Counted from the stretch's first letter, positions 1-58,944 are shown. The stretch: DNA of 64,000 nucleotides from Nanobdellota archaeon (GCA_023133595.1 JAGLWF010000001.1:33693-97692); one strand, 5' to 3'. Translations and numbers: made by a program. The notes: a model not told the origin generated them from the letters alone.

Positions 1-776
1 TTGCATCTTGAGAGCCCATTTGTTGCTTCCCAGACGCAGGTGTCGTATTCATCGCACAGGCCGAAGGTATGGCCAAATTCATGATCAGCAACATTGACTC
101 TCTGGCTGCATTCTTGCCCTCCCAGATAGATTGCATCACCATATAGGTAAGTAAAACCACAGCCGCACTCATCTACATCCTGCAATAATTTATCTATTGC
201 AAATATTCTATATCTGTACGGGGCTGGAGCTGGAAGAAATTTATCATTCTTTTCCAGGTACCAATCCTCAGCAAATAATGAGACTGCTCCTAGATCAATA
301 TCACACACAGCATCTGTCTCTAATTGTTCATCCAAGATTACAAAAGTAGTATCTGGAAAATGGAATTCTAACTTTAGTTCTTCTTTGATCTCATTTACAC
401 GGGAAATAAACCTGGAATCGTCTGGTTCATAATTCAAAGGTACAAAAAATATCGTGAATGGAAAGTCCTGTTTATTGTCAATCTCTTCACAACTAGACCC
501 CATGCAGGCCATTCCCTCTGGACAGCCGCACCTGGTGCAGTCTTTAACCAAAGCAAGTTCTTCAATCTCAGAGTCATAGGCGCAAAATAGTGGCTTATCG
601 TAGGAGCAAGCTTCAAATACAGTATCATCAGGACATAAGTCTAATTGTACAATATGCGGCTCTGATGTCCCGTTATATAGATATTCGTAGTAAATCAAGA
701 TACTTGCAGATATAACAAGAACCATTCCGATCACAATAAACAAGGCAACCTGTGCCTGTCTATTTTTTCTATTCAT
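1..776 (-). CDS. Putative membrane-anchored zinc metalloprotease (HExxH: HEFGHTFGLCDEY); 3' end runs off the window
   Basis: Read by hand in a frame the ORF track does not list (no stop inside the window). Begins MNRKNRQAQVALFIVIGMVLVIS (N-terminal TM anchor) and contains the HEFGH zinc-binding motif. SD-like GAGAGGGG lies ahead of the ATG at 776. It sits 12 nt downstream of the preceding membrane-protein gene, same strand. Confidence 0.55.
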   Translation of the reverse strand, partial: MNRKNRQAQVALFIVIGMVLVISASILIYYEYLYNGTSEPHIVQLDLCPDDTVFEACSYDKPLFCAYDSEIEELALVKDCTRCGCPEGMACMGSSCEEIDNKQDFPFTIFFVPLNYEPDDSRFISRVNEIKEELKLEFHFPDTTFVILDEQLETDAVCDIDLGAVSLFAEDWYLEKNDKFLPAPAPYRYRIFAIDKLLQDVDECGCGFTYLYGDAIYLGGQECSQRVNVADHEFGHTFGLCDEYDTCVWEATNGLSRC

Positions 777-788
777 AACCCCTCTCAT

Positions 789-2825
789 TTAACTGCACTT
801 CTTAATTTGATTATTGATCAATGTATTATCAGGACATCGAGAATATTGCTCAAATGCCTCCTGGAACGCTTCCTCGCATCTCTGCGGCGGATCTGCTGCC
901 GAACAAACATTAAAATCTGTGACAAACAATGTCAATTTAGAATAACAGTCAGTATCGTATGATTCACAGCCTTCTAGATATTCCTGTCCTAGGTAATGTA
1001 ATAGCAATCTTAATCTCAGAGCCTCGTTCTTTAACACCAAAGTCTCTGAAGGTATCCTGAATTTTTCAATATAATATTCATTCCCAAATTCTTTCTTGAG
1101 TTTTGTATTGAGATTGCTGACTCTTGTCAATGCAAGTGCAAGATTTGTATGCTTGATAAACTCATTCAATGTCTTGCCGAACAGAGTTCCGCTGAAAAAA
1201 GAGATCTGACTGAAAGGAACGAAGTCCTGCTGTTTCTCAAGACCAAATGTAGGAGATAGTTGTTCATACAATTGATCAGAGGCGAATTGCATTTTCTTGA
1301 TATGCTCCTGAAGATCTTTTGTTCTGTCCAGGAAATCTACTTTTCCAACCTTGTTTGCGTTTATTGCTGCAAACTCGTCGACAGCGATCTTTGCCTGGTT
1401 TCTTAACATAGATGTCTGCAGACTCAATCTTATCATACGGTTAGTATTCTCAGCCATGTCATCAAATACTTTTCCAGATACAAAATTAAAAAAAGCTCCA
1501 AACCCAGTAACCCTAGGAATGTAATAATTCTTATAGGACTGGAGTTGAGATTCGTACTGGGTTTGAAGACTCAAAAACATGCTTGGCAATTTGCCTTTTA
1601 CTATTGGATATTTCCATGTCAATTTATGCATATGCTCTTCGATCATCAATGGTTCTGTCGCCTCGATAAGCTCTGCTTTTGTTTCCAGAGCACGTTCATA
1701 AATATTGGAAGCAAATATTGTGCCGGAGATGCCTGCGATAATCAGGATAATTATCATCAGGAAGATGCTGATAAAGATGCCATACATGATTGGATCCCAG
1801 GTTATGCTCCTACGCGGTTTCAGGAGTAATGTCAAAGGATAGGCAGCAGCGAAAAAATTAATCTTTCCTGTTGTACGACCGATAAGAGAGGCACCGATCC
1901 TGATGATGACCGGAAATGTCAGTGCTAATATTATGAAATAAATTATTATCAGGTACATGACAGACATATGCTTGAAAAATGGTAGCAGGACATGCGACAT
2001 GAACAACAGTATCAAGACAAGAAGAGTTACAAAGTAAGTCAGTAGGATCATCCAGCAATTGTAGAGTGCAAAGAAGTTGTGCTTCCTATCGGTTTTGCTG
2101 AAATAGATCCAAGCCTTAAGAAATACAAGGCCAGCAAAGATCAATAAGATATAGGATAGATAAAGTGACAGAAGAAAAAATCCTATGAAAACCAGGATTG
2201 CTAACACTTCATTCTTAGTTTTGTAGGAAATCCCGATCAGATAATTAAATACCAAAAAACCAACGATGAAAATCAATGAAGAATACACTGCTCCTGCAAA
2301 AGCTCCGATAAGAGTGAGGAGAGCAATGAACAGAACCATATGAACATCTCCAGACAATCGCAAGAATTTCATTATATCAAACGGATTCTTGTAGTTCAGC
2401 AATGGTTTGTGCTGGTACGATGGAAGAACATGTTCATGAAAAAACAGCCTGAATAATAATGTGAAAAAGACTGCCACCAGTAACGGGATAACAATTGAGA
2501 TCACAAGATAGAGCAGGATGTTTGGGACTGCTTGCGGTGCTGAATAGATAAAGAATACAAAAGTTATTATTCCAGTCAGAAGACCTACCAAAACTTCGTA
2601 TTTCAAGGAATCTTTTTCTGACAGATGATGCCTTGCACAGGAATATCCCAGGAATGCTGCGATCACTGCAGGATAGATAATTAATATTGAGAAAAATATT
2701 GCATTTGTCATGTCTGGAAGTGATGCGAACTTAAAGAAGAAAAGCAAAACTATAGGCACTAATATCAGTAGCAACAGTAACGGTGCACTCAATACTGAGA
2801 TATGTGAAATCTCTTGATTTTCCAT
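789..2825 (-). CDS. Polytopic membrane protein (>=10 predicted TM helices) with a ~290-aa Cys-containing C-terminal soluble domain; possible secretion/pilus platform partner (FlaJ/TadC-like role not established)
   Basis: 678-aa ORF, first ~390 aa strongly hydrophobic. GAGGT-type RBS ahead of the ATG at 2825. It lies 14 nt downstream of the FlaI/VirB11-family ATPase gene in the same operon. No T2SS-F motif could be recognised by eye. Confidence 0.5.
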   Translation of the reverse strand: MENQEISHISVLSAPLLLLLILVPIVLLFFFKFASLPDMTNAIFFSILIIYPAVIAAFLGYSCARHHLSEKDSLKYEVLVGLLTGIITFVFFIYSAPQAVPNILLYLVISIVIPLLVAVFFTLLFRLFFHEHVLPSYQHKPLLNYKNPFDIMKFLRLSGDVHMVLFIALLTLIGAFAGAVYSSLIFIVGFLVFNYLIGISYKTKNEVLAILVFIGFFLLSLYLSYILLIFAGLVFLKAWIYFSKTDRKHNFFALYNCWMILLTYFVTLLVLILLFMSHVLLPFFKHMSVMYLIIIYFIILALTFPVIIRIGASLIGRTTGKINFFAAAYPLTLLLKPRRSITWDPIMYGIFISIFLMIIILIIAGISGTIFASNIYERALETKAELIEATEPLMIEEHMHKLTWKYPIVKGKLPSMFLSLQTQYESQLQSYKNYYIPRVTGFGAFFNFVSGKVFDDMAENTNRMIRLSLQTSMLRNQAKIAVDEFAAINANKVGKVDFLDRTKDLQEHIKKMQFASDQLYEQLSPTFGLEKQQDFVPFSQISFFSGTLFGKTLNEFIKHTNLALALTRVSNLNTKLKKEFGNEYYIEKFRIPSETLVLKNEALRLRLLLHYLGQEYLEGCESYDTDCYSKLTLFVTDFNVCSAADPPQRCEEAFQEAFEQYSRCPDNTLINNQIKKCS

Positions 2826-2839
2826 CTACCAACCTCTTT

Positions 2840-5800
2840 TTATTTTTTAACTGATTCTTTCTTGACTTCTTTTTTCAGCCAGCGTTCCCATTCATTGTAG
2901 ATCATCTTACTGTCAAGATCACCGACTTCCTCCAATACATTTTCTGAGATAATGTGAAACATATCATTGCATTTTATGACAAATGGAGCTTCTAGTAATT
3001 CGGGATTTCCTGCTTTCAGGGAATAATCCAAGTTAGCCTTCCGGATCTTTGCTCTTAGCATGATATTATCCCAGACAGCATCCCATTTTCCTGCCCACTG
3101 CTTGACATTTGCTGCAATGCTCTTCAAGACATCACTGTCTCCATTCATCAGATCTGGACTTGGTTCTAATTCATCTGTTATTGGATTATAACGAAGAAGA
3201 TCAACAAAACCCTGCTCTCTGTGCGGATCCTCGACCCAATCCTTTCTTACTTCTGTGATGCCTGTCATACGACGCCACCAATGCAGACCGTCAGGACTTC
3301 TGACAGGAGTATTCATAAGTATGATATCAGTTGCTTTGAATGATGTGCGCGGAACTCCGATATCATTGACAACACGATCAAACACACCGTAGGGACTGTC
3401 AGCGTGTATTGTGCCTGCAACAACATTTGCAGCTGCACCGACACGCATTGCTTCGTATAATGCCAGCGCTTCTGTATTGTGGAGTAAAATTCCTCCAAAA
3501 CCACCAATAAACCTCTGAGTGGACTTTACACTTAAATCATAAACATATTCTGGTTTTTTAAGATTAATAACCTCAATAGATTTTACTTTATCAACAAAAA
3601 ACTCACCATGAGCAAAATTATAAATCTCATCACTACATTTAACTTCTTCTGTAATTTTTTTAAGATAATCTTTTGAACAGCATTTTGTTCTTCTTAAATG
3701 CCTATACTTCCTTGGCAATTTTAAATGTTTTTCTAACTCTTTCGGATTAAATGATACTGAATCATCTTTACTATGTGAAAAAGATTTTGTAAATATAGAA
3801 GGCCTCTTATGTGTAAATCCAATATTTTTTAAGAAGAATTCAACATATTTTCTTTGCTTTATTTCAGCAATATATATTTTCTTATGACTTTTATTTATTT
3901 TGTTTCTGCTATGGATTCTACATACAATTCCTACTGATAAAAGTGCATAAGCGACATCTTCAATTAACTTTTTTGATGTTGAGAAATATTGGATCATGGT
4001 TCCAGCGCTTTTCGTTATACTAATAGAGCCATCACCGCTATACATTCCCCTTAATAGAGCACAGATCTTCTTTTCATTTAGGCCATACACAAATTCGGGG
4101 ATTCTTTTATGAAAAGATGTTTTCCCGCAATCTAACTTAAGTAATAAATCAGCAAGAGGTTTACATGTGACAAACATTTGTATTGAAGTCCCATAACCCT
4201 TTATTTTTCTCTTCGAAACAGATAATCCTAATTCTTTTTCACAAATTTGAGTTATATCTTTAATTATTTCTGGTTTTGAATTTGTAATCTGAATTTTGCT
4301 GTTAGTGATGTTACCTTCAGCGAGATAATATCCAATAAATCTTAAAACACTTTCATTTATTGGGAACTTCGTGGGAATACTATTTGAGGTTCCTCTTTTA
4401 ATTCTTAGATTCTCCAGATTAAACTTTATCTTTGCTTTAATCATTAATTTGAGAAAAGCTTTAATAGGAATCCTCGTTTTTTGAGTAGATAACAGATATC
4501 TGTAGATATCAGAAATCCCACAGATCTCGCTACATTTTTTCCAATTAAGTTTTTTGACTGCCTTACGAATATATGGTTCTGCATTTTCCAAACGATAGTC
4601 TTCTTTGAATACTCTTAACAAATCGATAGAACCAATATCATTAAAACCATTTGGCAATTTAGAAGGAATTATTATTGGATCTCCTACTTTTAATTGATTG
4701 GTGTTTATAGCAGCAATTTTAAAATCAACATGAGTAAATACACTATGGTCAGGAGTAACAGTAACTTCTCTTCCTGTTTTAGTAGTAAGTTTGATTAATT
4801 GTTTACGTTTAGGATGCTTTACAAAAGCAGTTAGTTTTTTTAATTTCATTTTTTGTTCCTCACCAAATGTAGGGACAAAAAATGATTTTAAATTCTTATT
4901 TTCTAAGTCTTTTATAGGCATCCGTTTAGTCAATCCATTTTCAACAATTACAACTTCCTCACTACCCTTAAGAGAACTTCTGACCTCACCTATAATCAAT
5001 GAAGAATCTCCCATCCGCAGTGTCGCACGGATTCCATCAGTTGCACTGACTCCTGATTCTTTTGTTGCTGCGAGTGCAGAAGAAACTTTCATAGATTGTA
5101 AATTGAATCCCAATTCACGCAGTGCCTGCGTCGGAAGTTCCAGTGTATCTTCAATCGTGATAATACGATAACGCCGCATGATGTCAACCATTACTGACGC
5201 AAGTACACTTGACTTTCCACTGCTCCTTGTACCTGCGACAAGCATTGTCTTTGTGCCGTCGATAAGAAAACTGATTATTCCTGCTGCAATAGGATTGAAC
5301 ATCTTGTATTTCATGAATAATGGGAGTGTCCACGGTTTATTTCTGTGCCTTCTGAATGCAAACGCAAGACCTGTTGGATTAAGTGGAGGCGAGATCGCAG
5401 AAACTCTTGTACGCGCAGCTGGCAGTGTAAGTTCTGTATCAAGGATAGGGTTTGCTTCATCCAATGGCCTGCCGCTTATCAGACGAAGTTTTGTTGCCCA
5501 ACTTTCTGACTCTGTCGGTGTCGGATAAATGTTTGAGAAACAATTTCCAAAGTCCTGGTGCACTATAAACATCGGAATCCTTCCAAGTGGAGAATTTAAT
5601 GTTACGTCCTGTATCTTTTCATCCTCCATCAGGACCTCGATCAGGCCGAATCCGATTGTGTAACGCATCAATATCTTTGCCAGCAACAAGATATCCTTAT
5701 TCTTCATCTTAATATCTTTTGTTTCTGCCAGTTCTGCCAACAAATCAACGCCAATGTTCATGAAAACTTCGCGCATCCGTTCTGGATCAATGAATTCAGA

Positions 5801-6628
5801 TTTTGTCGGCTTATGCTCTGCCATGATGTTTCTTGCAGTGTCGAGCAATTCGTACTGTTCTTCTGTGAGCCTGAACTCAGGCGGCATGAGATGATAAAGA
5901 TATTGAACATCCTCGGGAAGTTTGAAAACATTCACTTCTGTATCGCCGATAGAATAAGTGTCAAGGATCTCTCCACCGTCTGGATATTGTGCCCGCAGTT
6001 TTGTATACATGAAATCCGGTTTGATCACTGGTCTGAAGATCAGACGATATAGATCACGGGAATCAACAGAATATCCAGGGATTTGCGGAAGTACTGCTTT
6101 GATCATCCGCGTGCGTTCCAATAATTCTTTTACATAACTTAGGATCGCAATATATTTCTCTTCATTCATCAATCTTTTTGTGTCTGTGATTGTTTCTTTT
6201 GCTATCCTCGCCTCCCGTACCAATCGCTTTAGCATCACATAAGCTCCGATCGGATCCTGTTTTAGCCTGACAAATACCAAGTTATTGATCAGATCCTGTT
6301 TCTGCGCATACCATGTGCGGTATTCAGGAATCTTTCCTATCTCGAACAAAGATAGCTGATGCTTGTTCTGCGTGAGATGCGCATAGAGATTAGCAATCTC
6401 CATCAGGATGAGAACCTGGTTCATCTCATATTCAAAATCACGTTTTTGATAGTACACAATCTTTGTTACTTCTTTTACCTGCAATAGAATATCAATTGTC
6501 CTGCTCATCAGGAATGGATCATCTTCTAGGATTGGGATTCGTGAATAGGTCTCGCAATATATACGTAGAATGCGCTCTTCTCCTTCTCTTATTAGCTCAA
6601 ACTCCCAGTCCTTCTTCTGTGGCATCAT
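2840..6628 (-). CDS. FlaI/VirB11/GspE-family secretion or type IV pilus ATPase with a long N-terminal extension and an inserted ~501-aa intein (LAGLIDADG homing endonuclease type)
   Basis: Walker A GTRSSGKSS; PilT/GspE Asp box RIITIEDTLEL; Walker-B-proximal LIIGEVR; His box GTIHADS. Between GEVR and TEALALYEAMRVG lies a segment with intein block B (TPDH), two LAGLIDADG-like motifs (GYYLAEGNIT and LLRGMYSGDGSI), and a terminal ILLHN followed by Thr. Start moved to the MMPQKK ATG at 6628, which has AAAAAGGGGTGG upstream; the ORF-track N-terminus reads through the promoter. Confidence 0.8.
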   Translation of the reverse strand: MMPQKKDWEFELIREGEERILRIYCETYSRIPILEDDPFLMSRTIDILLQVKEVTKIVYYQKRDFEYEMNQVLILMEIANLYAHLTQNKHQLSLFEIGKIPEYRTWYAQKQDLINNLVFVRLKQDPIGAYVMLKRLVREARIAKETITDTKRLMNEEKYIAILSYVKELLERTRMIKAVLPQIPGYSVDSRDLYRLIFRPVIKPDFMYTKLRAQYPDGGEILDTYSIGDTEVNVFKLPEDVQYLYHLMPPEFRLTEEQYELLDTARNIMAEHKPTKSEFIDPERMREVFMNIGVDLLAELAETKDIKMKNKDILLLAKILMRYTIGFGLIEVLMEDEKIQDVTLNSPLGRIPMFIVHQDFGNCFSNIYPTPTESESWATKLRLISGRPLDEANPILDTELTLPAARTRVSAISPPLNPTGLAFAFRRHRNKPWTLPLFMKYKMFNPIAAGIISFLIDGTKTMLVAGTRSSGKSSVLASVMVDIMRRYRIITIEDTLELPTQALRELGFNLQSMKVSSALAATKESGVSATDGIRATLRMGDSSLIIGEVRSSLKGSEEVVIVENGLTKRMPIKDLENKNLKSFFVPTFGEEQKMKLKKLTAFVKHPKRKQLIKLTTKTGREVTVTPDHSVFTHVDFKIAAINTNQLKVGDPIIIPSKLPNGFNDIGSIDLLRVFKEDYRLENAEPYIRKAVKKLNWKKCSEICGISDIYRYLLSTQKTRIPIKAFLKLMIKAKIKFNLENLRIKRGTSNSIPTKFPINESVLRFIGYYLAEGNITNSKIQITNSKPEIIKDITQICEKELGLSVSKRKIKGYGTSIQMFVTCKPLADLLLKLDCGKTSFHKRIPEFVYGLNEKKICALLRGMYSGDGSISITKSAGTMIQYFSTSKKLIEDVAYALLSVGIVCRIHSRNKINKSHKKIYIAEIKQRKYVEFFLKNIGFTHKRPSIFTKSFSHSKDDSVSFNPKELEKHLKLPRKYRHLRRTKCCSKDYLKKITEEVKCSDEIYNFAHGEFFVDKVKSIEVINLKKPEYVYDLSVKSTQRFIGGFGGILLHNTEALALYEAMRVGAAANVVAGTIHADSPYGVFDRVVNDIGVPRTSFKATDIILMNTPVRSPDGLHWWRRMTGITEVRKDWVEDPHREQGFVDLLRYNPITDELEPSPDLMNGDSDVLKSIAANVKQWAGKWDAVWDNIMLRAKIRKANLDYSLKAGNPELLEAPFVIKCNDMFHIISENVLEEVGDLDSKMIYNEWERWLKKEVKKESVKK
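3476..4978 (-). other. Intein (Ser1 ... HN, with Thr at +1) inside the secretion ATPase; contains a LAGLIDADG homing endonuclease domain
   Basis: Boundaries found by residue counting. The extein junction is GEVR|S...ILLHN|TEALALYEAM, which leaves a contiguous GEVRTEALALYEAM. This resembles the FlaI GEIRGEEAYVLFQAM region. Confidence 0.65.
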
Positions 6629-6706
6629 CCACCCCTTTTTATATACTGAAATGAAGCATATATTTAAATATTTCCGACATTTCAGTTTCATAAAAGAGGG
6701 AAGATT
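6629..6706. promoter_or_regulatory. Divergent promoter region with palindromic TATA-like boxes (atatttaaatattt / tatatac)
   Basis: AT-rich intergenic region between the minus-strand ATPase start (6628) and the plus-strand ORF start (6707). TATA-like elements sit about 25-30 nt from both ATGs. Confidence 0.4.
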
Positions 6707-7174
6707 ATGTCTCCATTGTTCAAAAAAACACCAAAAACCGCAGATACTGCAAGAGGTCCTGAAAAGGCAGAATCCAGGTTCAAAAACATATTTGCTGGAA
6801 AAGAAAAAATGCCTGCAATAGGTCATGGTACAGAAACTCTCTTAGGTGACATAGGCAGGCGGTTGCGTGTTCTTGAAGATCGATACAACAGTTTGAGAAA
6901 ACAATTCCAGTTCACAGACCAGATCATGCTGAAAAATAAAAAAGAAATCAATACTGAGATAAAAGCAATGGACCTCACACTGTCCGAGATAAACAAAGAG
7001 ATTATCGAGCTAAAGGATAAAGCTGCAAGAATGTCCTCTGAACTGAAAGGCTGTGCAAGATTATCAGAACTCAAGATTATTGAAAAATACATTGATCTAT
7101 GGAAACCTGTGAATTTCCTTACGAGAGATCAGGCTATCAAGATGATCAAGGAATACGCAAAAAAGAATAAGTAA
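6707..7174 (+). CDS. Hypothetical coiled-coil protein
   Basis: 155-aa ORF with AGAGGGAAG ahead of the ATG. Heptad-like, K/E-rich sequence. Confidence 0.5.
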   Translation: MSPLFKKTPKTADTARGPEKAESRFKNIFAGKEKMPAIGHGTETLLGDIGRRLRVLEDRYNSLRKQFQFTDQIMLKNKKEINTEIKAMDLTLSEINKEIIELKDKAARMSSELKGCARLSELKIIEKYIDLWKPVNFLTRDQAIKMIKEYAKKNK

Positions 7175-7214: not shown

Positions 7215-7925
7215 ATGGTAGAGTTGTTTGGTGGTAAAAAAGAGGAGAAAAAGGAGGCTCTTTCTGTTGATAGAATCCTGCAGATGCAGCAGCAGGGCTT
7301 TTCAAACGATCAGATAGTCCAGACCTTGCAGAGAGAGGGCTATAAGAGCAATGAGATATTTGACAATATACAGATGGCAGACACAAGAAAAGGTGTGACA
7401 GGGGCTGCGTACCCGCCACCGCCTACAACACATCCTGCAATGGGCGGAGCACCAGGCATAATCCCTGCAGCAGGAGGCGGAGTTTCTACAGAACAGATCG
7501 AAGAAGTTGCAGAAGCTATTATTGATGAGAAGTGGGATGAATTGGTTGAGAGTGTGAACAAGATCATTGATTGGAAAGAGAAAGTGGAAGCTGATGTTAC
7601 AGCGATAAACGAACGGATCACACAATTGAACAATAATATTCAGACTATCCAGAAATCAGTGCTTGGAAAAGTAGATGAGTACGACAAGACAATGGAAGAC
7701 GTGGGAACTGATGTGAAAGCAATGACAAAAGTTTTCCAGGAGATCCTGCCTGGCTTTGTTGAGAATGTCCAGGAATTATCGCGTGTGACTGCACGAGTGA
7801 AAGGAGAAAAACCAAAAGCATTGCCTAAAATAGAGATGCCAACAGCAAAAAAGAAGAGTTCTAAGAAAACAAAATCAAAGACAGCCGAGATCTTTGGTGA
7901 AAATTCAATAGAAGATATAGAATAG
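7215..7925 (+). CDS. Hypothetical protein: N-terminal domain, Pro/Gly linker, C-terminal coiled coil and a Lys-rich tail
   Basis: 236-aa ORF. Low-complexity PPPPTTHPAMGGAPGIIPAAGGG linker. C-terminal tail KKKSSKKTKSK. Confidence 0.5.
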   Translation: MVELFGGKKEEKKEALSVDRILQMQQQGFSNDQIVQTLQREGYKSNEIFDNIQMADTRKGVTGAAYPPPPTTHPAMGGAPGIIPAAGGGVSTEQIEEVAEAIIDEKWDELVESVNKIIDWKEKVEADVTAINERITQLNNNIQTIQKSVLGKVDEYDKTMEDVGTDVKAMTKVFQEILPGFVENVQELSRVTARVKGEKPKALPKIEMPTAKKKSSKKTKSKTAEIFGENSIEDIE

Positions 7926-7927
7926 AA

Positions 7928-8554
7928 TTATTTTTTCTCTGGTTTCTTGTATATCAATGCACGTATTGCTATTGTGATGATTAATGCAAATGCTCCCAAT
8001 CCTAGAATCTTAGGATGGAACAATACTTTCTGCACTTCCTGCTGATACGCTGCCTGTGCATCTGCTGGAATTCCTATTGTATCTGCAGGCGTGACTCCTG
8101 GACCAAGTGTCGGTGCCTCTGTCACTGCCGGAGCAGTAGTTGTCGCGCCAGCTCCTGCCTGCGGAATCAGGCTCGGACCAAATAATGTGCCAATCGCTGC
8201 AAATATGATAAGGATGATCGACACAAGGATAAGATAATGCACCAGACTCATCTTGCTCATATACTCTGTGATTGCAGTCTCTGGAACTCCAGAGAACCTG
8301 AAAGCCATCATTCCGAACAAGATAAAAATGAACATCACAACAAACCACGGAGAAACATAGAACAATATGGCTGTCACCTGCTTACTCAACAATGTAAGGC
8401 AAGCAACTGCAAACGCGATTATCGCATTCACTCCCTGATCATCTGAGATCAACTTAAATTTATCCAATAGCGCATAAACTATCAAGAACACCAATAAGAA
8501 AATAAATATCGGTGATGCAAACTGAAGTAATCCAATATCAAGGAATGTTGCCAT
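7928..8554 (-). CDS. Integral membrane protein, member of a four-copy tandem paralogous family (most divergent copy; Ala/Thr/Pro-rich insert)
   Basis: 208 aa with about 4 hydrophobic segments. The other three copies share the xLPFLLxF motif at TM1; this copy has only a related SPIFIFLL. Head-to-tail with the next copy; its start overlaps that copy's stop. Confidence 0.6.
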   Translation of the reverse strand: MATFLDIGLLQFASPIFIFLLVFLIVYALLDKFKLISDDQGVNAIIAFAVACLTLLSKQVTAILFYVSPWFVVMFIFILFGMMAFRFSGVPETAITEYMSKMSLVHYLILVSIILIIFAAIGTLFGPSLIPQAGAGATTTAPAVTEAPTLGPGVTPADTIGIPADAQAAYQQEVQKVLFHPKILGLGAFALIITIAIRALIYKKPEKK

Positions 8555-8560
8555 TTTTTA

Positions 8561-9187
8561 TCAGCTAGGTGGTTCCCAGAATTTTGCCCAATCTTTCTTC
8601 CGTTGCTCTTTACGGTCCTTTGAGGTTCCTTCTGGTTCATGTATTATGAAATATATTATGATTCCAAATATCAATATGATCAGCAGCGCGGCCTGATTCT
8701 GCGGTGTGTTGATAAATCTTAATGGTCCAGGCAGATCCTTGAAAAGGCCGGCTGAATTACCAAAGATATAACCTACAACTATGATCGAGCCCCACAAGAT
8801 CCATGATTTGAATGGAAATTCTGTCCATGTTGGTGGTGCGAATATTCCAATCATCAGCATTACCATCAGGATTCCGACAATCCATAGAGAAATTGATGGC
8901 AGTGAATTATTGATTATTTCAACAACATCTGGATAGCCTGTCAATGCTCCGCCTAATCTGCCATCTGTAAAATCAGCAGTTCCATATACAACATGCGGGA
9001 TTATGATCAATAAAGCAATGACCAGAGAAATCACAACATTATACTTTTTGCCTTCCTTGCCCTTGCCAAGAATCTCAGTCTTTTGCAGTGCTGCAAAGAA
9101 TATTACGAATATCAAAAGAAATGGTAAGATAACATCTAAAGCACCTAAGCTTTCAAAGCTTCTTATTGCATCTTCAAAAACAGCCAT
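8561..9187 (-). CDS. Integral membrane protein, paralogous family member 2
   Basis: 208 aa. AGGTGAT RBS. Conserved blocks LDVILPFLLIF, DGRLGGA and NNSLPSIS(L/V)W shared with the 9270-9890 copy. Confidence 0.65.
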   Translation of the reverse strand: MAVFEDAIRSFESLGALDVILPFLLIFVIFFAALQKTEILGKGKEGKKYNVVISLVIALLIIIPHVVYGTADFTDGRLGGALTGYPDVVEIINNSLPSISLWIVGILMVMLMIGIFAPPTWTEFPFKSWILWGSIIVVGYIFGNSAGLFKDLPGPLRFINTPQNQAALLIILIFGIIIYFIIHEPEGTSKDRKEQRKKDWAKFWEPPS

Positions 9188-9269
9188 ATTATCACCTACT
9201 TAAATATATAGGATAGAAGATTCATATATAAAGGTTTCTAAAGGGATTTGTATAGAAAATAAAGAAAAA

Positions 9270-9890
9270 TTAACCTTCGCCTTCAGCTTTGGCTTTGGGT
9301 TTACCGTCGCCTTCTCCACCGCGTATGATAAAGAATATCACAATACCAAACACTAGTATTATCAGCAGCGCAGCCTGGTTGGCAGGTGTCTGCAGGAATC
9401 TTAATGCAGGTGGCAATTGCCTGAACAAGCCAGCTGAACTTCCAAAGATGTAGCCAACAACCACAACTGATACAAGCACTATGAGCCAGCTCCAACTTCC
9501 TAATTGATCTTTTATCGCATCTGGCATGAACAATCCTGTCAGAAGCATCAGCATAAGTATTGCAACAACCCATACAGAGATTGATGGCAATGAATTATTG
9601 AAGATCTCAACAACATCTGGCAGTCCCATGAATGCTCCGCCCAATCTTCCATCTGTCGGGTCAACTGTGCCAAATGCAACGTGCGGAATCACAATAAGCA
9701 ATCCAATAACCAAAGCAACTGTTACATCAAATCCTTTGTTTGGATTGGTATCAGCTTGTTTATGCAATATATTTGTCTTTCTCAATGCTGCATATATAAT
9801 CACAAAAACAAGCAGGAACGGAAGAACAACATCTGTAATACCCATCTGGTCCAGATTTCTTATAGCGTCAGCAAATACTCCTTGTGCCAT
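9270..9890 (-). CDS. Integral membrane protein, paralogous family member 3
   Basis: Start set at the ATG (MAQGV...) with AAGGAG 9 nt upstream. The ORF-track start is a TTG. About 55-60% identity by eye to the 8561-9187 copy. Confidence 0.65.
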   Translation of the reverse strand: MAQGVFADAIRNLDQMGITDVVLPFLLVFVIIYAALRKTNILHKQADTNPNKGFDVTVALVIGLLIVIPHVAFGTVDPTDGRLGGAFMGLPDVVEIFNNSLPSISVWVVAILMLMLLTGLFMPDAIKDQLGSWSWLIVLVSVVVVGYIFGSSAGLFRQLPPALRFLQTPANQAALLIILVFGIVIFFIIRGGEGDGKPKAKAEGEG

Positions 9891-9949
9891 CAATATCAAC
9901 TCCTTTTTGTTTTGAATCGTTTATGGATTTATAAATCTTCTTATTTTTT

Positions 9950-10354
9950 CTATTTAAATTTCTTATCAAACGCATAACAGCGCGAGTCTGACATCTTCAA
10001 GCCATAGCGCTTGAAATGCGGAAATTTCTGGCAGATATTCGGGCGATGTTTGTAGATTATGCATTTGGATTTTCCTTTCGAGATGTTCAGGAATATGCAG
10101 TAATTGTTTATCTTCTTCAATGTATTTTTCTTCTTCTTGACTTCTACAAAATATTTTCTCTTGTATTTGGTATTTTTCTCAATCCTCTTGATATCCTCAT
10201 CAGACAAACGGACCAACAACCTGCAGCAGTGCCCGCATCTCTTGCACTTGAACTTTTTGAAAGAATTGAAATAGGATTTTATCGATGCTCGATGAGAAGC
10301 TATGATAATCAAAGCAAATAATATCAGATATAACACATAATTAAGAGCATTCAT
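9950..10354 (-). CDS. YkgJ/UPF0153-like Zn- or Fe-S-binding protein (CxxCxxCC motif) with an N-terminal TM segment
   Basis: CKRCGHCC motif plus downstream Cys residues. The assignment is motif-level only. Confidence 0.4.
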   Translation of the reverse strand: MNALNYVLYLILFALIIIASHRASIKSYFNSFKKFKCKRCGHCCRLLVRLSDEDIKRIEKNTKYKRKYFVEVKKKKNTLKKINNYCIFLNISKGKSKCIIYKHRPNICQKFPHFKRYGLKMSDSRCYAFDKKFK

Positions 10355-10378
10355 TTAACATCAACTTGGGAATCTTGT

Positions 10379-10945
10379 CTAATCTTTATTTTGATCTGAT
10401 GGTTTGTCACCGCGAACAATTATACCGATGAATATTGCTATGCCTATCAGGAACAGGATTGTTGCGATCCAGTCTTCTGACCAGTGCGCTGAGAGAAACG
10501 TGAATAATTTCTGCAGCCATCCTAGTGCATGCAATATTATGAGCAAGATAACAATGAAAAGTCCTGGAAGAAATATATAGACGAACCATCTGTGTCCTGC
10601 TTCACCCTTTTTTGTAAACTTCAGTATTCCTCCTTCTCCAACAAACAAGCTGATTGTTATCAGGAAGAATGCGACAACAATAATCACAACCACAAAGTTT
10701 GCAATTGCTTCATTGATGATTGCAACAATCTGTGTTGCACCGACAAAGATTATTGCTACAACAAAAGCAACAATCGCGTTCAGACTTCGTCTTGGCTCTC
10801 CTCTGTATTCCTCGCCCAAGATCATAGTCTTGTCAAGGATTGCGTACAATAATGCAAACACAAGAAGAAACGGAAGTACTACATCATAGAATCCAAGTCT
10901 GCGCATGAATTCAACAACACCACCAAATACAGTCTGTTCTACCAT
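10379..10945 (-). CDS. Integral membrane protein, paralogous family member 4
   Basis: Start moved to an internal ATG (MVEQTVFGGVVEFMRRLGFYDVVLPFLL) by analogy with the paralog N-termini. GAAGAGG RBS and catataaaact TATA upstream. Confidence 0.55.
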   Translation of the reverse strand: MVEQTVFGGVVEFMRRLGFYDVVLPFLLVFALLYAILDKTMILGEEYRGEPRRSLNAIVAFVVAIIFVGATQIVAIINEAIANFVVVIIVVAFFLITISLFVGEGGILKFTKKGEAGHRWFVYIFLPGLFIVILLIILHALGWLQKLFTFLSAHWSEDWIATILFLIGIAIFIGIIVRGDKPSDQNKD

Positions 10946-11034
10946 CCTCTTCAGTTTTATATGCGTACTTTGGTTTATAAATGTTTTGGTTGCTAAAGCC
11001 AAGATTTATATACGAAACAGAGATAACATTGTCT

Positions 11035-17974: not shown

Positions 17975-19360
17975 GCATAGAAAATAAACTTGTGGCCTTC
18001 AACTTGTCGAGGGATTTCAAACTTTAGGCGAGCTAATATGATTTTGTGAATATTTTAATTTGTTTGTAATACTTATATCCCACTGGCCACTAGACATGTG
18101 CGCATAAGATATAAAAGGGAGTTTGTCCTTAACAATTGTATGATAGTTAACCGAATGTATAAATATCGTCTTTATCCAAATAAAGAACAAGTTAAACTTC
18201 TTACATCCCAACTGAAATCATTATGTAATATTTACAATCATTTATTGAAGATCAAGATCAATGTTTATAAAGAAAATAAGAGATCTCTTTCACGTAAAGA
18301 TCTCAATGCTTTAGTCAAAGCTTGGGATAAACACATTCATTCTCAAGTTCGTCAAAATGTTGCTGATCGAGTTGATAAAGCTTTTAATAATTTCTTCAAT
18401 CGTATTAAACTTAAAAAAAGCTATGCTAAAGTAAAAGTAGGTTTTCCGAGATTTAAAGCAGATCATAGATACAACAGTTTGACTTATCCTCAAAGTGGTT
18501 TTAATCTCTTAAATAATCGGATATTGCATTTATCTAAAATAGGGGATATTATTATTAAATTTCACCGTCCTATTGAAGGTAAAATCAAGACATTGAGTAT
18601 TAAACGCTCTCCAACTGGTAAATGGTATGTTTGTTTTAGCTGTGAAGTTCCTGTCACTAAAAAGCGTCACAAATTTTTAGATAAACAAGTTGGTATTGAT
18701 GTTGGTTTGGAGAATTTTGCTACATTGAGTACTGGTAATGTTATTACAAATCCTAGATATCTTATTAAAAGTGAGAACAAGCTTTCTAAATCTCAAAGAT
18801 GCTTAAGTAGAAAATTTAAAGGAAGTAAAAATCGAACCAAAGCTCGATTAAAGGTAGCGAAATTGCATGAGAAAATCACAAATCAAAGAATGGATTTTTT
18901 ACATAAACAAAGCCATTATCTCTCAAATACTTATAATTATATAGTTGTCGAATCTCTTAATATTAAAAATATGATGAAAAATCGTTATCTTGCAAAACAC
19001 ATTGCTGATGCTTCTTGGAATACCTTCATACAATTATTGTCTTACAAGGCTGCAAGTGCTGGAGGGCAACTCATTTGTGTGGATCCAAAATATACTTCAA
19101 TTAAGTGTAGTTGTTGTGGCAAAAATGTGCCAAAGAAACTTTCAGTTCGAGAACATAATTGCCCTTTTTGTGATTTGAAACTTCATCGCGATCATAATGC
19201 AGCAATTAACATTTTACACTCAAATAAAATACCGTTGGGACGGCGGGAATCTACGCCTGTGGAGATTTTCGATAGAAAATCGCTGAAACAGGACGCTCCG
19301 CAGCTTTAAGAAGGAGTAGTTCACAGAAACCCTTATAAAATCTAAATTATTTTGAACTCC
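17975..19360 (+). mobile_element. IS200/IS605-family TnpB-only (IS1341-type) insertion sequence; ends approximate
   Basis: A single tnpB with no tnpA, inserted between two housekeeping genes (17969 and 19362). About 185 nt of non-coding left end. Only about 50 nt remain to the right of the tnpB stop. Confidence 0.5.
18155..19309 (+). CDS. tnpB: TnpB (OrfB) RNA-guided endonuclease of the IS200/IS605 family
   Basis: N-terminal MYKYRLYPNKEQ. RuvC-I GIDVGLENFA, RuvC-II IVVESLNIKNM, a CxxC...CxxC zinc finger (KCSCCG...CPFCD), and RuvC-III HRDHNAAINI are all intact. Confidence 0.85.
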   Translation: MYKYRLYPNKEQVKLLTSQLKSLCNIYNHLLKIKINVYKENKRSLSRKDLNALVKAWDKHIHSQVRQNVADRVDKAFNNFFNRIKLKKSYAKVKVGFPRFKADHRYNSLTYPQSGFNLLNNRILHLSKIGDIIIKFHRPIEGKIKTLSIKRSPTGKWYVCFSCEVPVTKKRHKFLDKQVGIDVGLENFATLSTGNVITNPRYLIKSENKLSKSQRCLSRKFKGSKNRTKARLKVAKLHEKITNQRMDFLHKQSHYLSNTYNYIVVESLNIKNMMKNRYLAKHIADASWNTFIQLLSYKAASAGGQLICVDPKYTSIKCSCCGKNVPKKLSVREHNCPFCDLKLHRDHNAAINILHSNKIPLGRRESTPVEIFDRKSLKQDAPQL

Positions 19361-19361
19361 T

Positions 19362-46864: not shown

Positions 46865-46935
46865 ACAAATATATAAGCTTTTTGTTTTGATTCTAGCAAG
46901 ATTTATAAAAAGATAATTTTACTAAATCATATTAT

Positions 46936-47009
46936 GGGGACATAGTTTAACCTGGCTAGAGCGGCCGGCTCCAGACCGGCAAATCGGGGTTCAAATCCCC
47001 GTGTCCCCA
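46936..47009 (+). tRNA. tRNA-Trp (anticodon CCA), no intron, CCA not encoded
   Basis: Acceptor GGGGACA/UGUCCCC with discriminator A. Anticodon arm GCCGG-CUCCAGA-CCGGC. T-arm CGGGG-UUCAAAU-CCCCG. aaatatataagc TATA about 55 nt upstream. Confidence 0.8.
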
Positions 47010-47076
47010 TTTTATAGTCCCAGTAATTTTAAATAATGAAGATATTTCTCTCGAAAAGTGGAGCGGGGGTTTAAAA

Positions 47077-48090: not shown

Positions 48091-48257
48091 GCAGGCAGAA
48101 ATGTTGTCTCCCATATGGGATTAACGTGTGCCTATTATAGAGTGGCAAATCTAGCGAAACCTTTAAATAATAATTGCTACTTCTTAATGCTAACACAGTC
48201 GTATCTGCGAAGGGGTTGAGCGGCTGAAAATCGATAATGCTTTTTGGGGGTAAAAAA

Positions 48258-49751: not shown

Positions 49752-49862
49752 ATTGACTATTATAGAGTAGTTAAAACTACGAAACATTTATATATTGAAT
49801 GCGATTGACTCGTATGATTTGAGGCATTTATGTTTAAAATAAACAATTGGGGGTAATATAAA

Positions 49863-51224: not shown

Positions 51225-51264
51225 ATTTCAAAATTGTAAAAAAGAAATAAGGGGGAAAATTATA

Positions 51265-53019: not shown

Positions 53020-53064
53020 TGTTAACAAAATACTGTTCCAAGAGAATAGTATTTGTCAAAGAAA

Positions 53065-53117
53065 CCTTCCCAGAGTGCTCAGAATATGAGGACTTTATGT
53101 TCCCTGCTTTGGGAAGG
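53065..53117 (+). other. Stable hairpin (11-bp stem CCUUCCCAGAG/CUUUGGGAAGG, 31-nt loop) 45 nt after the PKD gene stop
   Basis: Direct read. One G-U pair. No T-tract follows, so it is not a classic terminator. Confidence 0.45.
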
Positions 53118-53285
53118 AAGCTTGAGTGAAGTTGTGATTTGTAGTCACTGCGAAATACTAAATAAATCGAAAGATTTATATACTGCTTTGATTACTGATG
53201 AATAATAACACTTAAGATCAAAAGAACCTTTTATCGGGGGTAAAGGGAATCAAGTCCAAAAAGGAATTTCGGAGGAAAATATAAA

Positions 53286-58931: not shown

Positions 58932-58944
58932 TAGAAAATAAAGG

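What the first reader, a model, noticed from the sequence alone, without database searches (positions are those of the whole stretch)
1..6628. Three-gene operon: secretion ATPase, 10-TM membrane protein with Cys-rich C-domain, membrane-anchored HExxH metalloprotease
The genes are co-directional with 12-14 nt spacers and SD-like sites, so co-transcription is likely. The membrane partner is not a recognisable FlaJ/TadC; all its TM helices come first, then a 290-aa soluble domain. Archaeal pilus and archaellum systems use an aspartic prepilin peptidase, not a zincin. The unit may be a non-canonical secretion or surface-assembly system whose substrate processing uses a HEFGH protease.
Basis: inference. 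Interest (0 to 1): 0.55.

Follow-up and report, generated by a model that had tools for sequence, protein, structure and literature searches.

The report
Split pilus-motor operon with protease cassette
These are the first three genes of a five-gene operon from a tiny Woesearchaeota archaeon: a pilus/secretion-type motor whose membrane platform gene lies just outside the window has three surface-protein genes, one a zinc protease with a pilin-like leader, wedged between its two parts, so this is a new variant of a known machine and not a new kind of system.

Summary

- **ATPase:** it is a T2SSE/PilB-type enzyme interrupted by a 500-aa LAGLIDADG intein (window 3476-4975). Spliced, it is 762 aa, the length of its intein-free orthologues.
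- **Operon:** it runs off the window. On the source contig it has five genes: ATPase, 678-aa membrane protein, 331-aa HExxH protein, 204-aa anchored protein and 740-aa membrane protein.
- **Core pair:** the ATPase and platform genes are adjacent in 67 of 71 sampled Woesearchaeota species.
- **Cassette:** the 678/HExxH/204 genes were inserted between the core genes in one subclade.
- **HExxH protein:** it has a metzincin fold, is cysteine-rich and so probably extracytoplasmic. In most orthologues its N-terminus looks like a class III (prepilin) signal. It is more likely cargo or an accessory of the motor than its processing peptidase.
- **678-aa protein:** it remains a fast-evolving orphan.

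Verdict: a new variant of a type IV filament system, of moderate interest.

The parts
2840..6628 (-). T2SSE/PilB-GspE-FlaI-type secretion ATPase gene. 1262 codons including the intein; 762 aa after splicing.
   Evidence: Pfam T2SSE 2.3e-15 on the spliced sequence. Best solved relatives are A. fulgidus GspE2 2oap at 1e-27, CpaF at 5e-20 and FlaI at 1.5e-14. Intein-free orthologues of 762 aa occur in L001 and L002.
3476..4975 (-). 500-aa intein with a LAGLIDADG homing endonuclease, inserted directly after the Walker B motif (LIIGEVRS | S...LLHN | TEAL).
   Evidence: Pfam Intein_splicing 2.7e-20 and LAGLIDADG_3 2.7e-19. The orthologue in L001 reads straight through as ...GEVRSTEALALYEAM.... GC is 0.295 against 0.425 in the exteins. 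The same intein sits at the same site in L072.
5207..5233 (-). Walker A motif (GTRSSGKSS) of the ATPase. The Asp box IEDTLE is at 5138-5155, Walker B LIIGEVRS at 4976-4999, and the His-box remnant GTIHADSP at 3392-3415.
   Evidence: Motif positions were computed. The first His of the usual TGH is replaced (VGA) in this family.
789..2825 (-). 678-aa polytopic membrane protein of an orphan family. It has about 10-11 TM segments, then a ~300-aa C-terminal domain that ends in a 6-Cys cluster (window 795-968).
   Evidence: ORF; hydropathy. No Pfam or NCBIfam hit. Only 18 cluster representatives reach E<=1e-3 among 1.84 billion proteins. No PDB relative. No profile similarity to the platform family.
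1..776 (-). 5' part (258 of 331 codons) of the gene for a Cys-rich metzincin-fold HExxH protein. It includes an N-terminal hydrophobic helix. The class-III-signal-like stretch RQAQVALFIVIG is at 761-726, HEFGH at 83-69 and D242 at 53-51.
6629..6706 (.). 78-nt AT-rich divergent intergenic region between the ATPase gene and the 155-aa gene. TATA-like TTTAAATA is at 6668-6661 and the SD-like GGGGTGG at 6635-6629.
   Evidence: Sequence read directly. Promoter function is inferred and was not tested.
6707..7174 (+). 155-aa coiled-coil protein gene, divergent from the ATPase gene and a conserved neighbour of it.
   Evidence: Orthologues lie at the same place in L001, L002, L007-L009 and many of L012-L091.
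7215..7925 (+). 236-aa protein with an N-terminal ~40-aa three-helix module, a Pro/Gly linker and a coiled coil. A conserved neighbour.
   Evidence: The module was found in orthologues at more than 30 loci.
7928..11002 (-). Four paralogous ~200-aa multi-TM membrane protein genes (7928-8554, 8561-9187, 9270-9899, 10379-11002), interrupted by a CxxCxxCC gene at 9950-10354. This block lies upstream of the operon and is conserved.
   Evidence: ORFs; no Pfam hits. The same block of 3-5 paralogues occurs in L007, L008, L009 and L097.

Best explanation
Window 1-6628 is the upstream three-fifths of a five-gene operon of a Woesearchaeota (DPANN) archaeon.

**Core motor.** The first gene is a PilB/GspE/FlaI-type ATPase, here carrying an intein that must splice out. 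The fifth gene is a 740-aa membrane protein just beyond the window edge. Together they form the motor of a type IV filament-like machine. The 740-aa protein is a very diverged GspF/PilC/TadC-type platform on which the hexameric ATPase would dock. This pair is conserved throughout the Woesearchaeota, usually as adjacent genes.

**Cassette.** In one subclade, three genes for membrane and surface proteins were inserted between the two core genes and have been kept since:
- a fast-evolving 10-11-TM protein with an extracellular helical, disulfide-capped domain;
- a Cys-rich metzincin-fold zinc protease whose N-terminus looks like a class III (prepilin-type) signal in most orthologues;
- a Sec-signal protein anchored by a C-terminal TM segment, whose gene overlaps the HExxH gene by 4 nt (suggesting translational coupling).

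**Proposed working.** The protease is inserted by its N-terminal helix. It is then displayed on or released from the cell surface with the help of the ATPase/platform motor, as bindosome proteins and type II secretion cargo are. The 204-aa protein would act as its membrane-anchored partner (chaperone, inhibitor or tether). The 678-aa protein would be a lineage-specific membrane accessory.

**Shown:** gene order, the intein, the ATPase family, the platform fold, the metzincin fold and motif, and the distribution and single origin of the cassette.
**Inferred:** co-transcription, cleavage of the class III signal, dependence of the cassette proteins on the motor, and the roles of the 204-aa and 678-aa proteins.
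For: **ATPase**
- Pfam T2SSE hit.
- Nearest solved relatives are archaeal GspE2, CpaF and FlaI.
- Walker A, Asp box and Walker B are intact.

**Intein**
- Pfam intein and LAGLIDADG hits.
- The spliced length of 762 aa equals that of the orthologues, which read uninterrupted through the junction.

**Full operon**
- Established on the source contig and in L001, L009 and L097.

**Platform**
- The AF2 model has pLDDT 79.5 and pTM 0.77.
- The protein has about 9 TM segments flanking two cytoplasmic helical bundles.

**Core pair**
- More than 3744 homologues at >=52% identity.
- 546 hits in GTDB species genomes.
- The ATPase lies upstream on the same strand in 71 of 80 loci and is adjacent in 67 of them, with a median gap of 67 nt.

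**Cassette**
- All loci that carry it (L003, L012, L013, L014, L097, L010, L096) form one clade in an NJ tree of the platform protein.
- Gene order is kept while the platform has diverged to about 52-63% identity and the 678-like protein to about 20%.

**Protease**
- HExGHTxGLC[D/E]EYDTC is conserved, along with 19 invariant Cys.

**Class-III-like N-terminus**
- [KR][GA] followed by [QA][IV][ST][LIV][FY]IIxG occurs in 8 of 11 full-length cluster representatives and in L097. This fits the archaeal rule of a basic residue at -2 (PMC3387779).

**Partner gene and precedents**
- The 204-aa gene overlaps the HExxH gene by 4 nt and always accompanies it, including in L011.
- Non-pilin class III proteins that depend on a PilB/PilC-like pair have a precedent in the Sulfolobus bindosome (PMC3387779).
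- One metzincin hit, CpaA (6o38, 'chaperone-substrate complex'), is a secreted protease solved in complex with a chaperone. From memory, it is type II-secreted and its chaperone CpaB is membrane-anchored.
Against: - Pfam and NCBIfam give no T2SSF hit at E<=1.
  - A PDB profile search found nothing.
  - hhalign against E. coli GspF/HofC gave 0.4% probability.
  - A whole-chain Foldseek search found nothing significant.
  - No internal sequence repeat was detected.
- **Signal peptide:** the window's own HExxH protein has Gln at -2 (NRQA|Q) and its closest relative has Asp (NKDA|Q), not Lys or Arg. Processing of this particular copy is therefore doubtful.
- **Peptidase and pilins:**
  - No A24 prepilin peptidase motif occurs in the 64-kb window.
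  - No pilin gene cluster lies within 10 kb of the pair in most species; strict class-III-like N-termini number 9 in 1.19 Mb.
- **Linkage:**
  - The HExxH/211 pair also occurs without the motor (L011).
  - A distant relative of the 678-aa protein sits among housekeeping genes (L092).
  - Other species carry unrelated genes, some on the opposite strand, between the ATPase and platform genes (L054). The slot may simply tolerate insertions.
- **Retention:** because the cassette clade is monophyletic, its retention could be inheritance rather than selection.
- **Model quality:** the HExxH model is weak (pLDDT 67, with residues 241-302 below 50).
Confidence: 0.58

Rival explanations
1. **Hitch-hiking cassette.** The ATPase and the 740-aa platform form a pilus-type motor, but the three genes between them are functionally unrelated to it. 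On this view the HExxH protein is an ordinary signal-anchored ectoprotease inserted by Sec/YidC, the 204-aa protein is its substrate, inhibitor or tether, and the 678-aa protein is an unrelated membrane protein. They sit there only because the site tolerates insertions and is well expressed.
For: - The HExxH/211 pair stands alone in L011.
- A distant 678-family member stands alone in L092.
- Unrelated genes fill the same slot in L006, L054 and L080, some on the opposite strand.
- The window's own copy lacks the basic residue at -2 expected of archaeal class III signals.
- The cassette has a single origin, so its retention may be inheritance alone.
Against: - The order and tight packing (overlaps of 4 and 17 nt; a 4-nt ATPase/678-like overlap in L097) are kept across lineages whose platform proteins are only about 52-63% identical.
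- The [KR][GA]Q motif followed by a conserved IIxG is more than a generic anchor would need.
- Most 678-family members and the conserved 236-aa neighbour of the ATPase share a ~40-aa three-helix module.
Confidence: 0.3
2. **The first reader's model.** The 678-aa protein replaces FlaJ/TadC as the membrane partner of the ATPase, and the HEFGH zincin replaces the aspartic prepilin peptidase as the enzyme that processes the system's substrates.
For: - The genes lie next to the ATPase gene.
- The 678-aa protein is not a recognisable T2SSF protein.
- No A24 peptidase motif occurs in the window.
Against: - A GspF/PilC-fold platform is encoded in the same operon.
- That platform is the ATPase's direct neighbour in 67 of 71 sampled species, which lack both the 678-aa and the HExxH genes.
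- L010 has the HExxH gene but no 678-like gene.
- The protease domain follows a single N-terminal helix and has 19 invariant Cys. This suggests an extracytoplasmic location, on the wrong side of the membrane for leader removal.
- The HExxH family has only 12 clusters.
Confidence: 0.04
3. **A different kind of motor.** The ATPase/platform pair belongs not to a pilus-like system but to an archaellum or to a VirB11-type DNA-transfer apparatus, with the cassette as its accessory genes.
For: - The best NCBIfam hit is the FlaI model.
- TrbB and VirB11 models also hit.
Against: - The FlaI score is 117 bits against a cut-off of 550, and the VirB11 and TrbB scores are also far below cut-off.
- No FlaH, FlaF/G, archaellin, VirB4 or coupling-protein genes were called in any of the annotated loci.
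- GspF/PilC-fold platforms go with type IV filament machines, not with VirB-type systems (established knowledge).
Confidence: 0.05

Closest known systems
Archaeal type IV pilus assembly pairs (PilB/PilC, such as Haloferax PilB3/PilC3 and Sulfolobus AapE/AapF and UpsE/UpsF) and A. fulgidus GspE2 (PDB 2oap)
   Same: - A T2SSE-family ATPase is encoded next to a polytopic platform protein whose cytoplasmic helical bundles have the GspF/PilC fold.
- The best solved sequence relative of the ATPase is 2oap at 1e-27.
- Pilin genes need not be adjacent to the pair (PMC6098224).
   Different: - The platform (740 aa) is invisible to Pfam T2SSF and to profile comparison.
- The ATPase has about 200 extra N-terminal and about 150 extra C-terminal residues, and the first His of its His box is replaced.
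- No pilin cluster and no A24 peptidase lie nearby.
- The two core genes are split by a cassette in this lineage.
Sulfolobus bindosome assembly system (BasEF plus sugar-binding proteins with class III signal peptides)
   Same: Functional, non-pilin surface proteins carry prepilin-type signals and depend on a PilB/PilC-like pair for surface localisation (PMC3387779). This is the model proposed here for the metzincin.
   Different: - It is not a member: the BasE model scores 40 bits against a cut-off of 1000.
- The cargo here would be a zinc protease, not a substrate-binding protein.
- Dependence on the motor has not been shown.
Acinetobacter type II-secreted metzincin CpaA with its dedicated chaperone CpaB (PDB 6o38)
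   Same: - A metzincin-fold protease is encoded next to a small dedicated partner and is associated with a GspE/GspF-type machine.
   Different: - CpaA is a large four-domain bacterial protein secreted through an outer-membrane secretin.
- Here the protease is 331 aa, has an N-terminal hydrophobic helix and no secretin partner, and sequence similarity is negligible.
- The biology of the CpaA/CpaB pair is recalled from memory. Only the PDB entry title ('chaperone-substrate complex') was seen here.
Small metzincins: archaemetzincin (PDB 2x7m, 3zvs) and snapalysin (M7; PDB 1c7k, 4hx3)
   Same: - The motif HExGHxxGLxD aligns with snapalysin HETGHVLGLPDHY and with archaemetzincin HELGHTFGLGH.
   Different: - Sequence scores are far below the family cut-offs.
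- There are extra Cys-rich N- and C-terminal regions and an N-terminal hydrophobic helix.
- Archaemetzincins are cytoplasmic.
- The residue at the third-ligand position is D in 12 clusters but E in L097.
Inteins in archaeal T2SSE/VirB11-type ATPases (the KlbA inteins of Methanococcales and Thermococcales; recalled from memory)
   Same: A class 1 intein with Ser1, penultimate His, terminal Asn and +1 Thr, plus a LAGLIDADG endonuclease, sits in a conserved ATPase motif.
   Different: Whether the insertion site is the same as in KlbA was not tested. This ATPase family has at least two insertion sites: after Walker B (window, L072) and in the Asp box (L019).

Membership tests
Type IV filament superfamily motor (T4P / T2SS / Tad / archaellum) | Hexameric secretion ATPase of the PilB/GspE/FlaI (T2SSE) family with Walker A, Asp box, Walker B and His box | tested here: met
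   - Pfam T2SSE scores 56.6 bits against a cut-off of 24.9 on the spliced protein.
- PDB relatives are 2oap at 1e-27, CpaF and FlaI.
- GTRSSGKSS, IEDTLE and LIIGEVRS are present. The His box keeps only its second His (GTIHA).
Type IV filament superfamily motor (T4P / T2SS / Tad / archaellum) | Platform protein recognisable by sequence as T2SSF (PilC/GspF/TadC/FlaJ) | tested here: not met
   For the 740-aa protein:
- no Pfam or NCBIfam hit at E<=1;
- a PDB profile search was empty;
- hhalign against E. coli GspF+HofC gave 0.4% probability.

The 678-aa protein has no hit either.
Type IV filament superfamily motor (T4P / T2SS / Tad / archaellum) | Platform protein with the GspF/PilC fold (cytoplasmic helical bundles flanked by TM helices), encoded with the ATPase | tested here: met
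   - Model of the 740-aa protein: pLDDT 79.5.
- The gene is adjacent to the ATPase gene in 67 of 71 species.
- Caveats: this rests on a predicted structure and domain-level matches. The whole-chain Foldseek search was not significant.
Type IV filament superfamily motor (T4P / T2SS / Tad / archaellum) | Substrates with class III (prepilin) signal peptides | tested here: inconclusive
   - The HExxH family fits [KR][GA]|[QA] plus a hydrophobic helix in 8 of 11 full-length clusters and in L097. The window copy has Q at -2.
- No other convincing candidate occurs in the window.
- Seven pilin-like genes lie next to the platform gene in L053.
- Cleavage was not tested.
Type IV filament superfamily motor (T4P / T2SS / Tad / archaellum) | A24 aspartic prepilin peptidase (PibD/FlaK) in the genome | not testable with these tools
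   No GxGD-type motif occurs in any window ORF of 100 aa or more. The rest of the MAG could not be read.
Archaellum | FlaI equivalog together with FlaH, FlaJ, FlaF/G and archaellins | tested here: not met
   The FlaI model scores 117 bits against a cut-off of 550. None of the companion genes was called in the annotated loci.
Metzincin zinc endopeptidases | HExxHxxGxx(H/D) zinc-binding motif | tested here: met
   HEFGHTFGLCD lies at window 83..51. H232, E233, H236 and D242 are invariant and G239 is nearly invariant across 12 clusters. The last position is E in L097.
Metzincin zinc endopeptidases | Metzincin catalytic fold | tested here: met
   [not shown]
Metzincin zinc endopeptidases | Met-turn below the zinc site | tested here: inconclusive
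   An invariant M294-G-S is present. It lies in the low-confidence part of the model (residues 241-302 below pLDDT 50) and outside the window.
Metzincin zinc endopeptidases | Membership of a curated peptidase family (M6, M7, M10, M12, M54) | tested here: not met
   All Pfam and NCBIfam hits are motif-only and below cut-off: Peptidase_M6 16 bits against 22, snapalysin 16 against 300, archaemetzincin 13.6 against 145.
   The protein has a single N-terminal helix followed by a Cys-rich globular domain. It is absent from most genomes that have the motor.
Class 1 intein with homing endonuclease | N-terminal Ser/Cys, block B TxxH, two LAGLIDADG motifs, C-terminal HN, +1 Ser/Thr/Cys, and an uninterrupted host protein after removal | tested here: met
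   - S1 (SLKGSEE), TPDH, LAEGN / YSGDGS and LLHN|T are all present.
- Pfam intein and LAGLIDADG hits.
- Intein-free orthologues have the predicted junction.
Bindosome assembly system (Bas) | BasE/BasF orthologues | tested here: not met
   The BasE model scores 40 bits against a cut-off of 1000. This is an analogy only.

The most novel reading that the evidence does not exclude
The ATPase/platform pair is a Woesearchaeota-wide surface-display or secretion motor, not only a pilus assembler. The slot between its two genes would then serve as a swap-in site for lineage-specific cargo:
- here, a prepilin-signal metzincin with its anchored partner and a dedicated polytopic membrane adaptor;
- elsewhere, large adhesin-like proteins.

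A shared ~40-aa cytoplasmic three-helix module would recruit membrane partners to the motor. This would amount to an archaeal counterpart of type II secretion, used by these small, probably host-dependent archaea to deliver enzymes to their surface or to a host.
Probability: 0.2. Interest if true: 0.75.

Novelty: new variant of a known kind. Interest (0 to 1): 0.45.

Why it matters
- **An unannotated platform family.** Woesearchaeota and other DPANN archaea have very small genomes and are thought to live attached to other cells, yet their surface machinery is almost entirely annotated as 'hypothetical'. This locus shows that a highly conserved 740-aa family, with thousands of members and no Pfam domain, is the missing PilC/GspF-type platform of a pilus-type motor that nearly all of them keep.
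- **A candidate enzyme cargo.** One subclade has placed a zinc protease with a pilin-like leader inside that operon. If the protease does depend on the motor, it would be an archaeal case of enzyme display or secretion by a type IV filament machine, and a candidate effector for cell-cell interaction.
- **Annotation.** The platform family could be given a profile and a name.

Tried and rejected
**The 678-aa protein as a diverged FlaJ/TadC: rejected**
- No Pfam, NCBIfam or PDB hits.
- No profile similarity to the platform family.

**Sequence-level proof that the 740-aa protein is T2SSF: failed**
- Pfam and NCBIfam at E<=1 gave nothing.
- The PDB profile search gave nothing.
- hhalign against E. 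coli GspF/HofC gave 0.4%, although the top alignment pairs LFQLGNRMADGIPAEIAF with the T2SSF-typical FTRQLATLSAAALPLEESL.
- An N-half against C-half comparison found no repeat.
- Whole-chain Foldseek against the PDB found nothing with E<=0.001.
- The afdb50 library was not available.

**Other searches that led nowhere**
- Prepilin peptidase or further HExxH genes in the window: none.
- A pilin gene cluster near the pair: a strict class-III scan found 9 hits in 1.19 Mb, several of them false.
- Recent horizontal transfer of the cassette: GC and GC3 resemble the flanking genes. Only the intein is deviant.
- Literature: no description of this Woesearchaeota system was found in four searches. The 2016 census of archaeal T4P does not cover Woesearchaeota.

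**Readings rejected**
- Archaellum or VirB-type system (and the gene content of the loci).


Full report
**1. What is in the window**

Three ORFs follow one another on the minus strand.
- The ATPase ORF runs 6628..2840. Its ATG at 6628/6625 is preceded by GGGGTGG. The longer ORF from 6826 overlaps the divergent gene, and public gene calls do not use it.
- After 14 nt containing GAGGT comes a 678-codon ORF, 2825..789.
- After its stop, an ORF runs off the window start. It begins at 788 or, more plausibly, at 776, which is 12 nt downstream and behind GAGGGG.

**2.
- Pfam finds Intein_splicing (2.7e-20) and LAGLIDADG_3 (2.7e-19) inside the 1262-aa product, with T2SSE split around them.
- The boundaries are LIIGEVRS | SLKGSEE ... 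GGILLHN | TEALALYEAM. In window coordinates the intein is 3476-4975.
- Removal gives 762 aa. The orthologues in two other Woesearchaeota MAGs (L001, L002) are 762 aa. L001 reads ...LIIGEVRSTEALALYEAM... without interruption.
- The intein has GC 0.295 (GC3 0.206) against 0.425 for the exteins, as expected of a mobile element.
- The same intein sits at the same site in L072. L019 has an intein at a different site, in the Asp box: IED | ... AHN | TLELP.
- The spliced ATPase scores 56.6 bits on T2SSE. Its closest solved relatives are A. fulgidus GspE2 (2oap, 1e-27), CpaF (5e-20) and FlaI (1.5e-14).
- It falls far below every NCBIfam equivalog cut-off: FlaI 117 against 550, TadA 110 against 373, BasE 40 against 1000.
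- Walker A, the Asp box and Walker B are intact. The first His of the His box is replaced.

**3. The operon continues beyond the window**
- An exact-sequence look-up places the window on a 300-kb contig of a Nanoarchaeota/Woesearchaeota MAG, GCA_030630885.1. Window position x corresponds to L003 position 12826-x.
- On that contig the HExxH gene is 331 codons. It is followed by a 204-codon gene that overlaps it by 4 nt, then a 740-codon gene that overlaps the 204-codon gene by 17 nt. A convergent small gene and IleRS come next.
- The same five genes, plus a divergent 155-aa gene, occur in L001/L012, L009/L013 and the more distant L097. L002 shows the divergent gene, the ATPase and the 678-like gene, but its contig ends there.

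**4. The fifth gene encodes the platform**
- The 740-aa protein has no Pfam or NCBIfam hit even at E<=1, and NCBI calls it hypothetical. It nevertheless has more than 3744 homologues of at least 52% identity, all from Woesearchaeota/Nanoarchaeota-type sources.
- An AlphaFold model built from 38 sequences is good: pLDDT 79.5, pTM 0.77. It shows about nine TM helices flanking two cytoplasmic helical bundles.
- I take this as fold-level evidence that the protein is a very diverged GspF/PilC/TadC-type platform.
- All sequence-level tests failed, and whole-chain Foldseek found nothing. The assignment therefore rests on a predicted structure.

**5. The conserved unit is the ATPase plus the platform**
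- A scan of one genome per GTDB species found at least 546 stretches that encode a relative of the platform.
- In the 80 best loci, the ATPase gene lies upstream on the same strand in 71. It is directly adjacent in 67 of these, with a median gap of 67 nt between tblastn matches. Annotated examples are L007 and L008.
- Four loci have inserts of more than 3 kb. L012 and L013 carry the cassette seen in the window. L054 and L080 carry unrelated genes. L006 carries yet another set, of Sec-signal adhesin-like proteins.
- In an NJ tree of the platform protein, all loci with the HExxH cassette (L003, L012, L013, L014, L097, L010, L096) form one clade (no bootstrap). L010 (HExxH + 211 aa only) and L096 (upstream sequence not available) branch near its base.
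- The cassette thus looks like a single, old insertion, kept while the platform diverged to about 52-63% identity.

**6. The HExxH protein**
- The family is small: 12 clusters, all Woesearchaeota.
- The alignment shows invariant HExGHTFGLCDEYDTC, an invariant MGS further on, and 19 invariant cysteines. L097 has E in place of D242.
- Profile alignments put the motif on archaemetzincin HELGHTFGLGH and snapalysin HETGHVLGLPDHY, but without statistical significance.
- The N-terminus is a 35-residue helix in the model. In 8 of 11 full-length cluster representatives and in L097 it reads [KR][GA] then [QA][IV][ST][LIV][FY]IIxG. Examples are MKKA|QVTIFIIIG and NKKG|QVSVYIIVG.
- This fits the archaeal class III rule, in which positions -2, -1 and +1 matter and a basic residue at -2 is typical (PMC3387779).
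- The window's own copy (NRQA|QVALFIVIG) and its nearest relative (NKDA|Q) lack the basic -2 residue. I report this as a weakness.

**7. The partner and the orphan**
- The 204-aa protein has a Sec-type signal, a beta-rich domain, a CxxDxxCxxxExxxxCPxDC motif and a C-terminal TM with a basic tail. It accompanies the HExxH gene everywhere, including the solitary pair in L011.
- The 678-aa protein has about 10-11 TM segments and a ~300-aa C-terminal domain that ends in six conserved Cys.
- An exhaustive HMM search of 1.84 billion representatives found only 18 relatives at E<=1e-3.
- Relatives at about 20% identity hold the same position after the ATPase gene in L097, while another (P0128) stands among housekeeping genes.
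- Most relatives, but not the window copy, begin with a ~40-aa three-helix module that gives a weak, sub-threshold RecX_HTH1 hit.
- The same module occurs in the conserved 236-aa neighbour (window 7215-7925), in that neighbour's orthologues at more than 30 loci, and in the tails of some nearby surface proteins.

**8. How it most likely works**

Shown:
- a PilB-type ATPase that needs protein splicing;
- a GspF/PilC-fold platform;
- their near-universal pairing;
- a single-origin cassette of three extracytoplasmic or membrane proteins that includes a metzincin.

Inferred:
- the five genes are co-transcribed;
- the metzincin is inserted by its N-terminal helix, possibly trimmed by a prepilin peptidase encoded elsewhere;
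- it is displayed or released with the help of the motor, as Sulfolobus bindosome proteins are (PMC3387779), or as type II cargo such as CpaA is with its chaperone (PDB 6o38 title; the biology is from memory);
- the 204-aa protein is its anchored partner;
- the 678-aa protein is a lineage-specific membrane accessory.

I put about 0.85 on the motor assignment, about 0.55-0.6 on a functional link between the cassette and the motor, and about 0.45 on class III processing.

**9. Rivals**
- The main rival (0.3) is that the cassette merely hitch-hikes. The pair of core genes tolerates unrelated inserts, the HExxH/211 pair and 678-family members occur elsewhere, and a monophyletic cassette can persist by inheritance alone.
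- Archaellum or VirB-type readings fail on scores and on gene content (0.05).

**10. Novelty and limits**
- This is a new variant of a known kind. The machine is a type IV filament motor. What is new is a Pfam-invisible platform family conserved across Woesearchaeota, the split of the core pair by a cassette, and a metzincin with a pilin-like leader.
- I found no description of it in four literature searches. The 2016 archaeal T4P census does not mention Woesearchaeota or DPANN.
- Limits:
  - all structures are predicted;
  - there are no expression data;
  - the rest of the genome could not be read, so the presence of a prepilin peptidase and of pilins is unknown;
  - the tree has no support values;
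  - the 678-aa protein has no model.

Noticed in passing
window 3476-4975 (-); L072 about 7836-9317; L019 about 7387-8901: The ATPase family hosts inteins at two or more sites. One site follows Walker B (GEVRS|...HN|T), in the window and in L072, whose inteins have near-identical C-terminal blocks. The other lies in the Asp box (IED|...AHN|TLELP) in L019. The window intein has GC3 of 0.21 against about 0.4 in the host gene.
   Followed up: partly
window 7215-7925 (+), residues about 15-55; L001:2997-5162 N-terminus; L006:3109-5127 C-terminal repeats; other loci listed: A ~40-aa three-helix module (consensus about xxIxxxxxxGYSxxQIxxxLxxxGYxxxxIxxxI; weak sub-threshold RecX_HTH1 hit) recurs in three places: the conserved 236-aa neighbour of the ATPase (more than 30 loci), the N-terminus of most 678-family proteins, and the cytoplasmic tails of large surface proteins near the platform gene. 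It may be a docking module. Genome-wide enrichment was not tested.
   Followed up: partly
window 7928-8554, 8561-9187, 9270-9899, 10379-11002 (all -): Four paralogous ~200-aa, roughly 5-TM proteins with no Pfam hit lie upstream of the operon. Blocks of 3-5 such paralogues are conserved at this position in L007, L008, L009 and L097. They may be further parts of the system.
   Followed up: no
L012 and L042 (both from assembly JAHWHI01, isolate FT6_98): One MAG holds both a cassette-bearing operon (L012) and a plain adjacent ATPase/platform pair (L042, about 53% identity). This means either two paralogous systems in one genome or a mixed bin.
   Followed up: no
L053:84-7221 (-), next to the platform gene at 7362-9614: Seven or eight consecutive genes have short basic leaders and hydrophobic N-termini (for example MQKRG|ATVINFVLIFG and MKKKG|SVFMTAFVIAV). 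They lie divergently next to a platform homologue that has no ATPase gene within 7 kb. They may be the pilins of this motor in that species.
   Followed up: partly
window 18059-19309 (+): An IS200/IS605-type TnpB gene (OrfB_IS605 1.4e-31, Cas12f1-like TNB 1.2e-22) lies in a low-GC stretch (0.343 for window 18001-20000).
   Followed up: partly
window 48228-56095 (+): A run of five genes encodes signal-peptide surface proteins. One has four PKD domains plus He_PIG (51187-53019), and two have FixG_C-like Ig folds.
   Followed up: partly
window 58943-59058 (-) and 46935-47010 (+): A stand-alone 5S rRNA gene (70 bits) and a single tRNA-Trp. No other RNA family reached its gathering threshold.
   Followed up: yes
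L003:19419-20822 (-), outside the window: A 467-aa ORF with no Pfam hit lies between the RNA polymerase subunit N gene and the ribosomal protein S9 gene on the source contig. It is absent from the same position in L001 and L008 and may be another insertion.
   Followed up: no
L013-L091 record titles: Many loci that encode this Woesearchaeota-type pair come from MAGs labelled 'uncultured Methanosarcinales archaeon' or 'Euryarchaeota archaeon'. Given the gene content, these are probably taxonomic mislabels.
   Followed up: no
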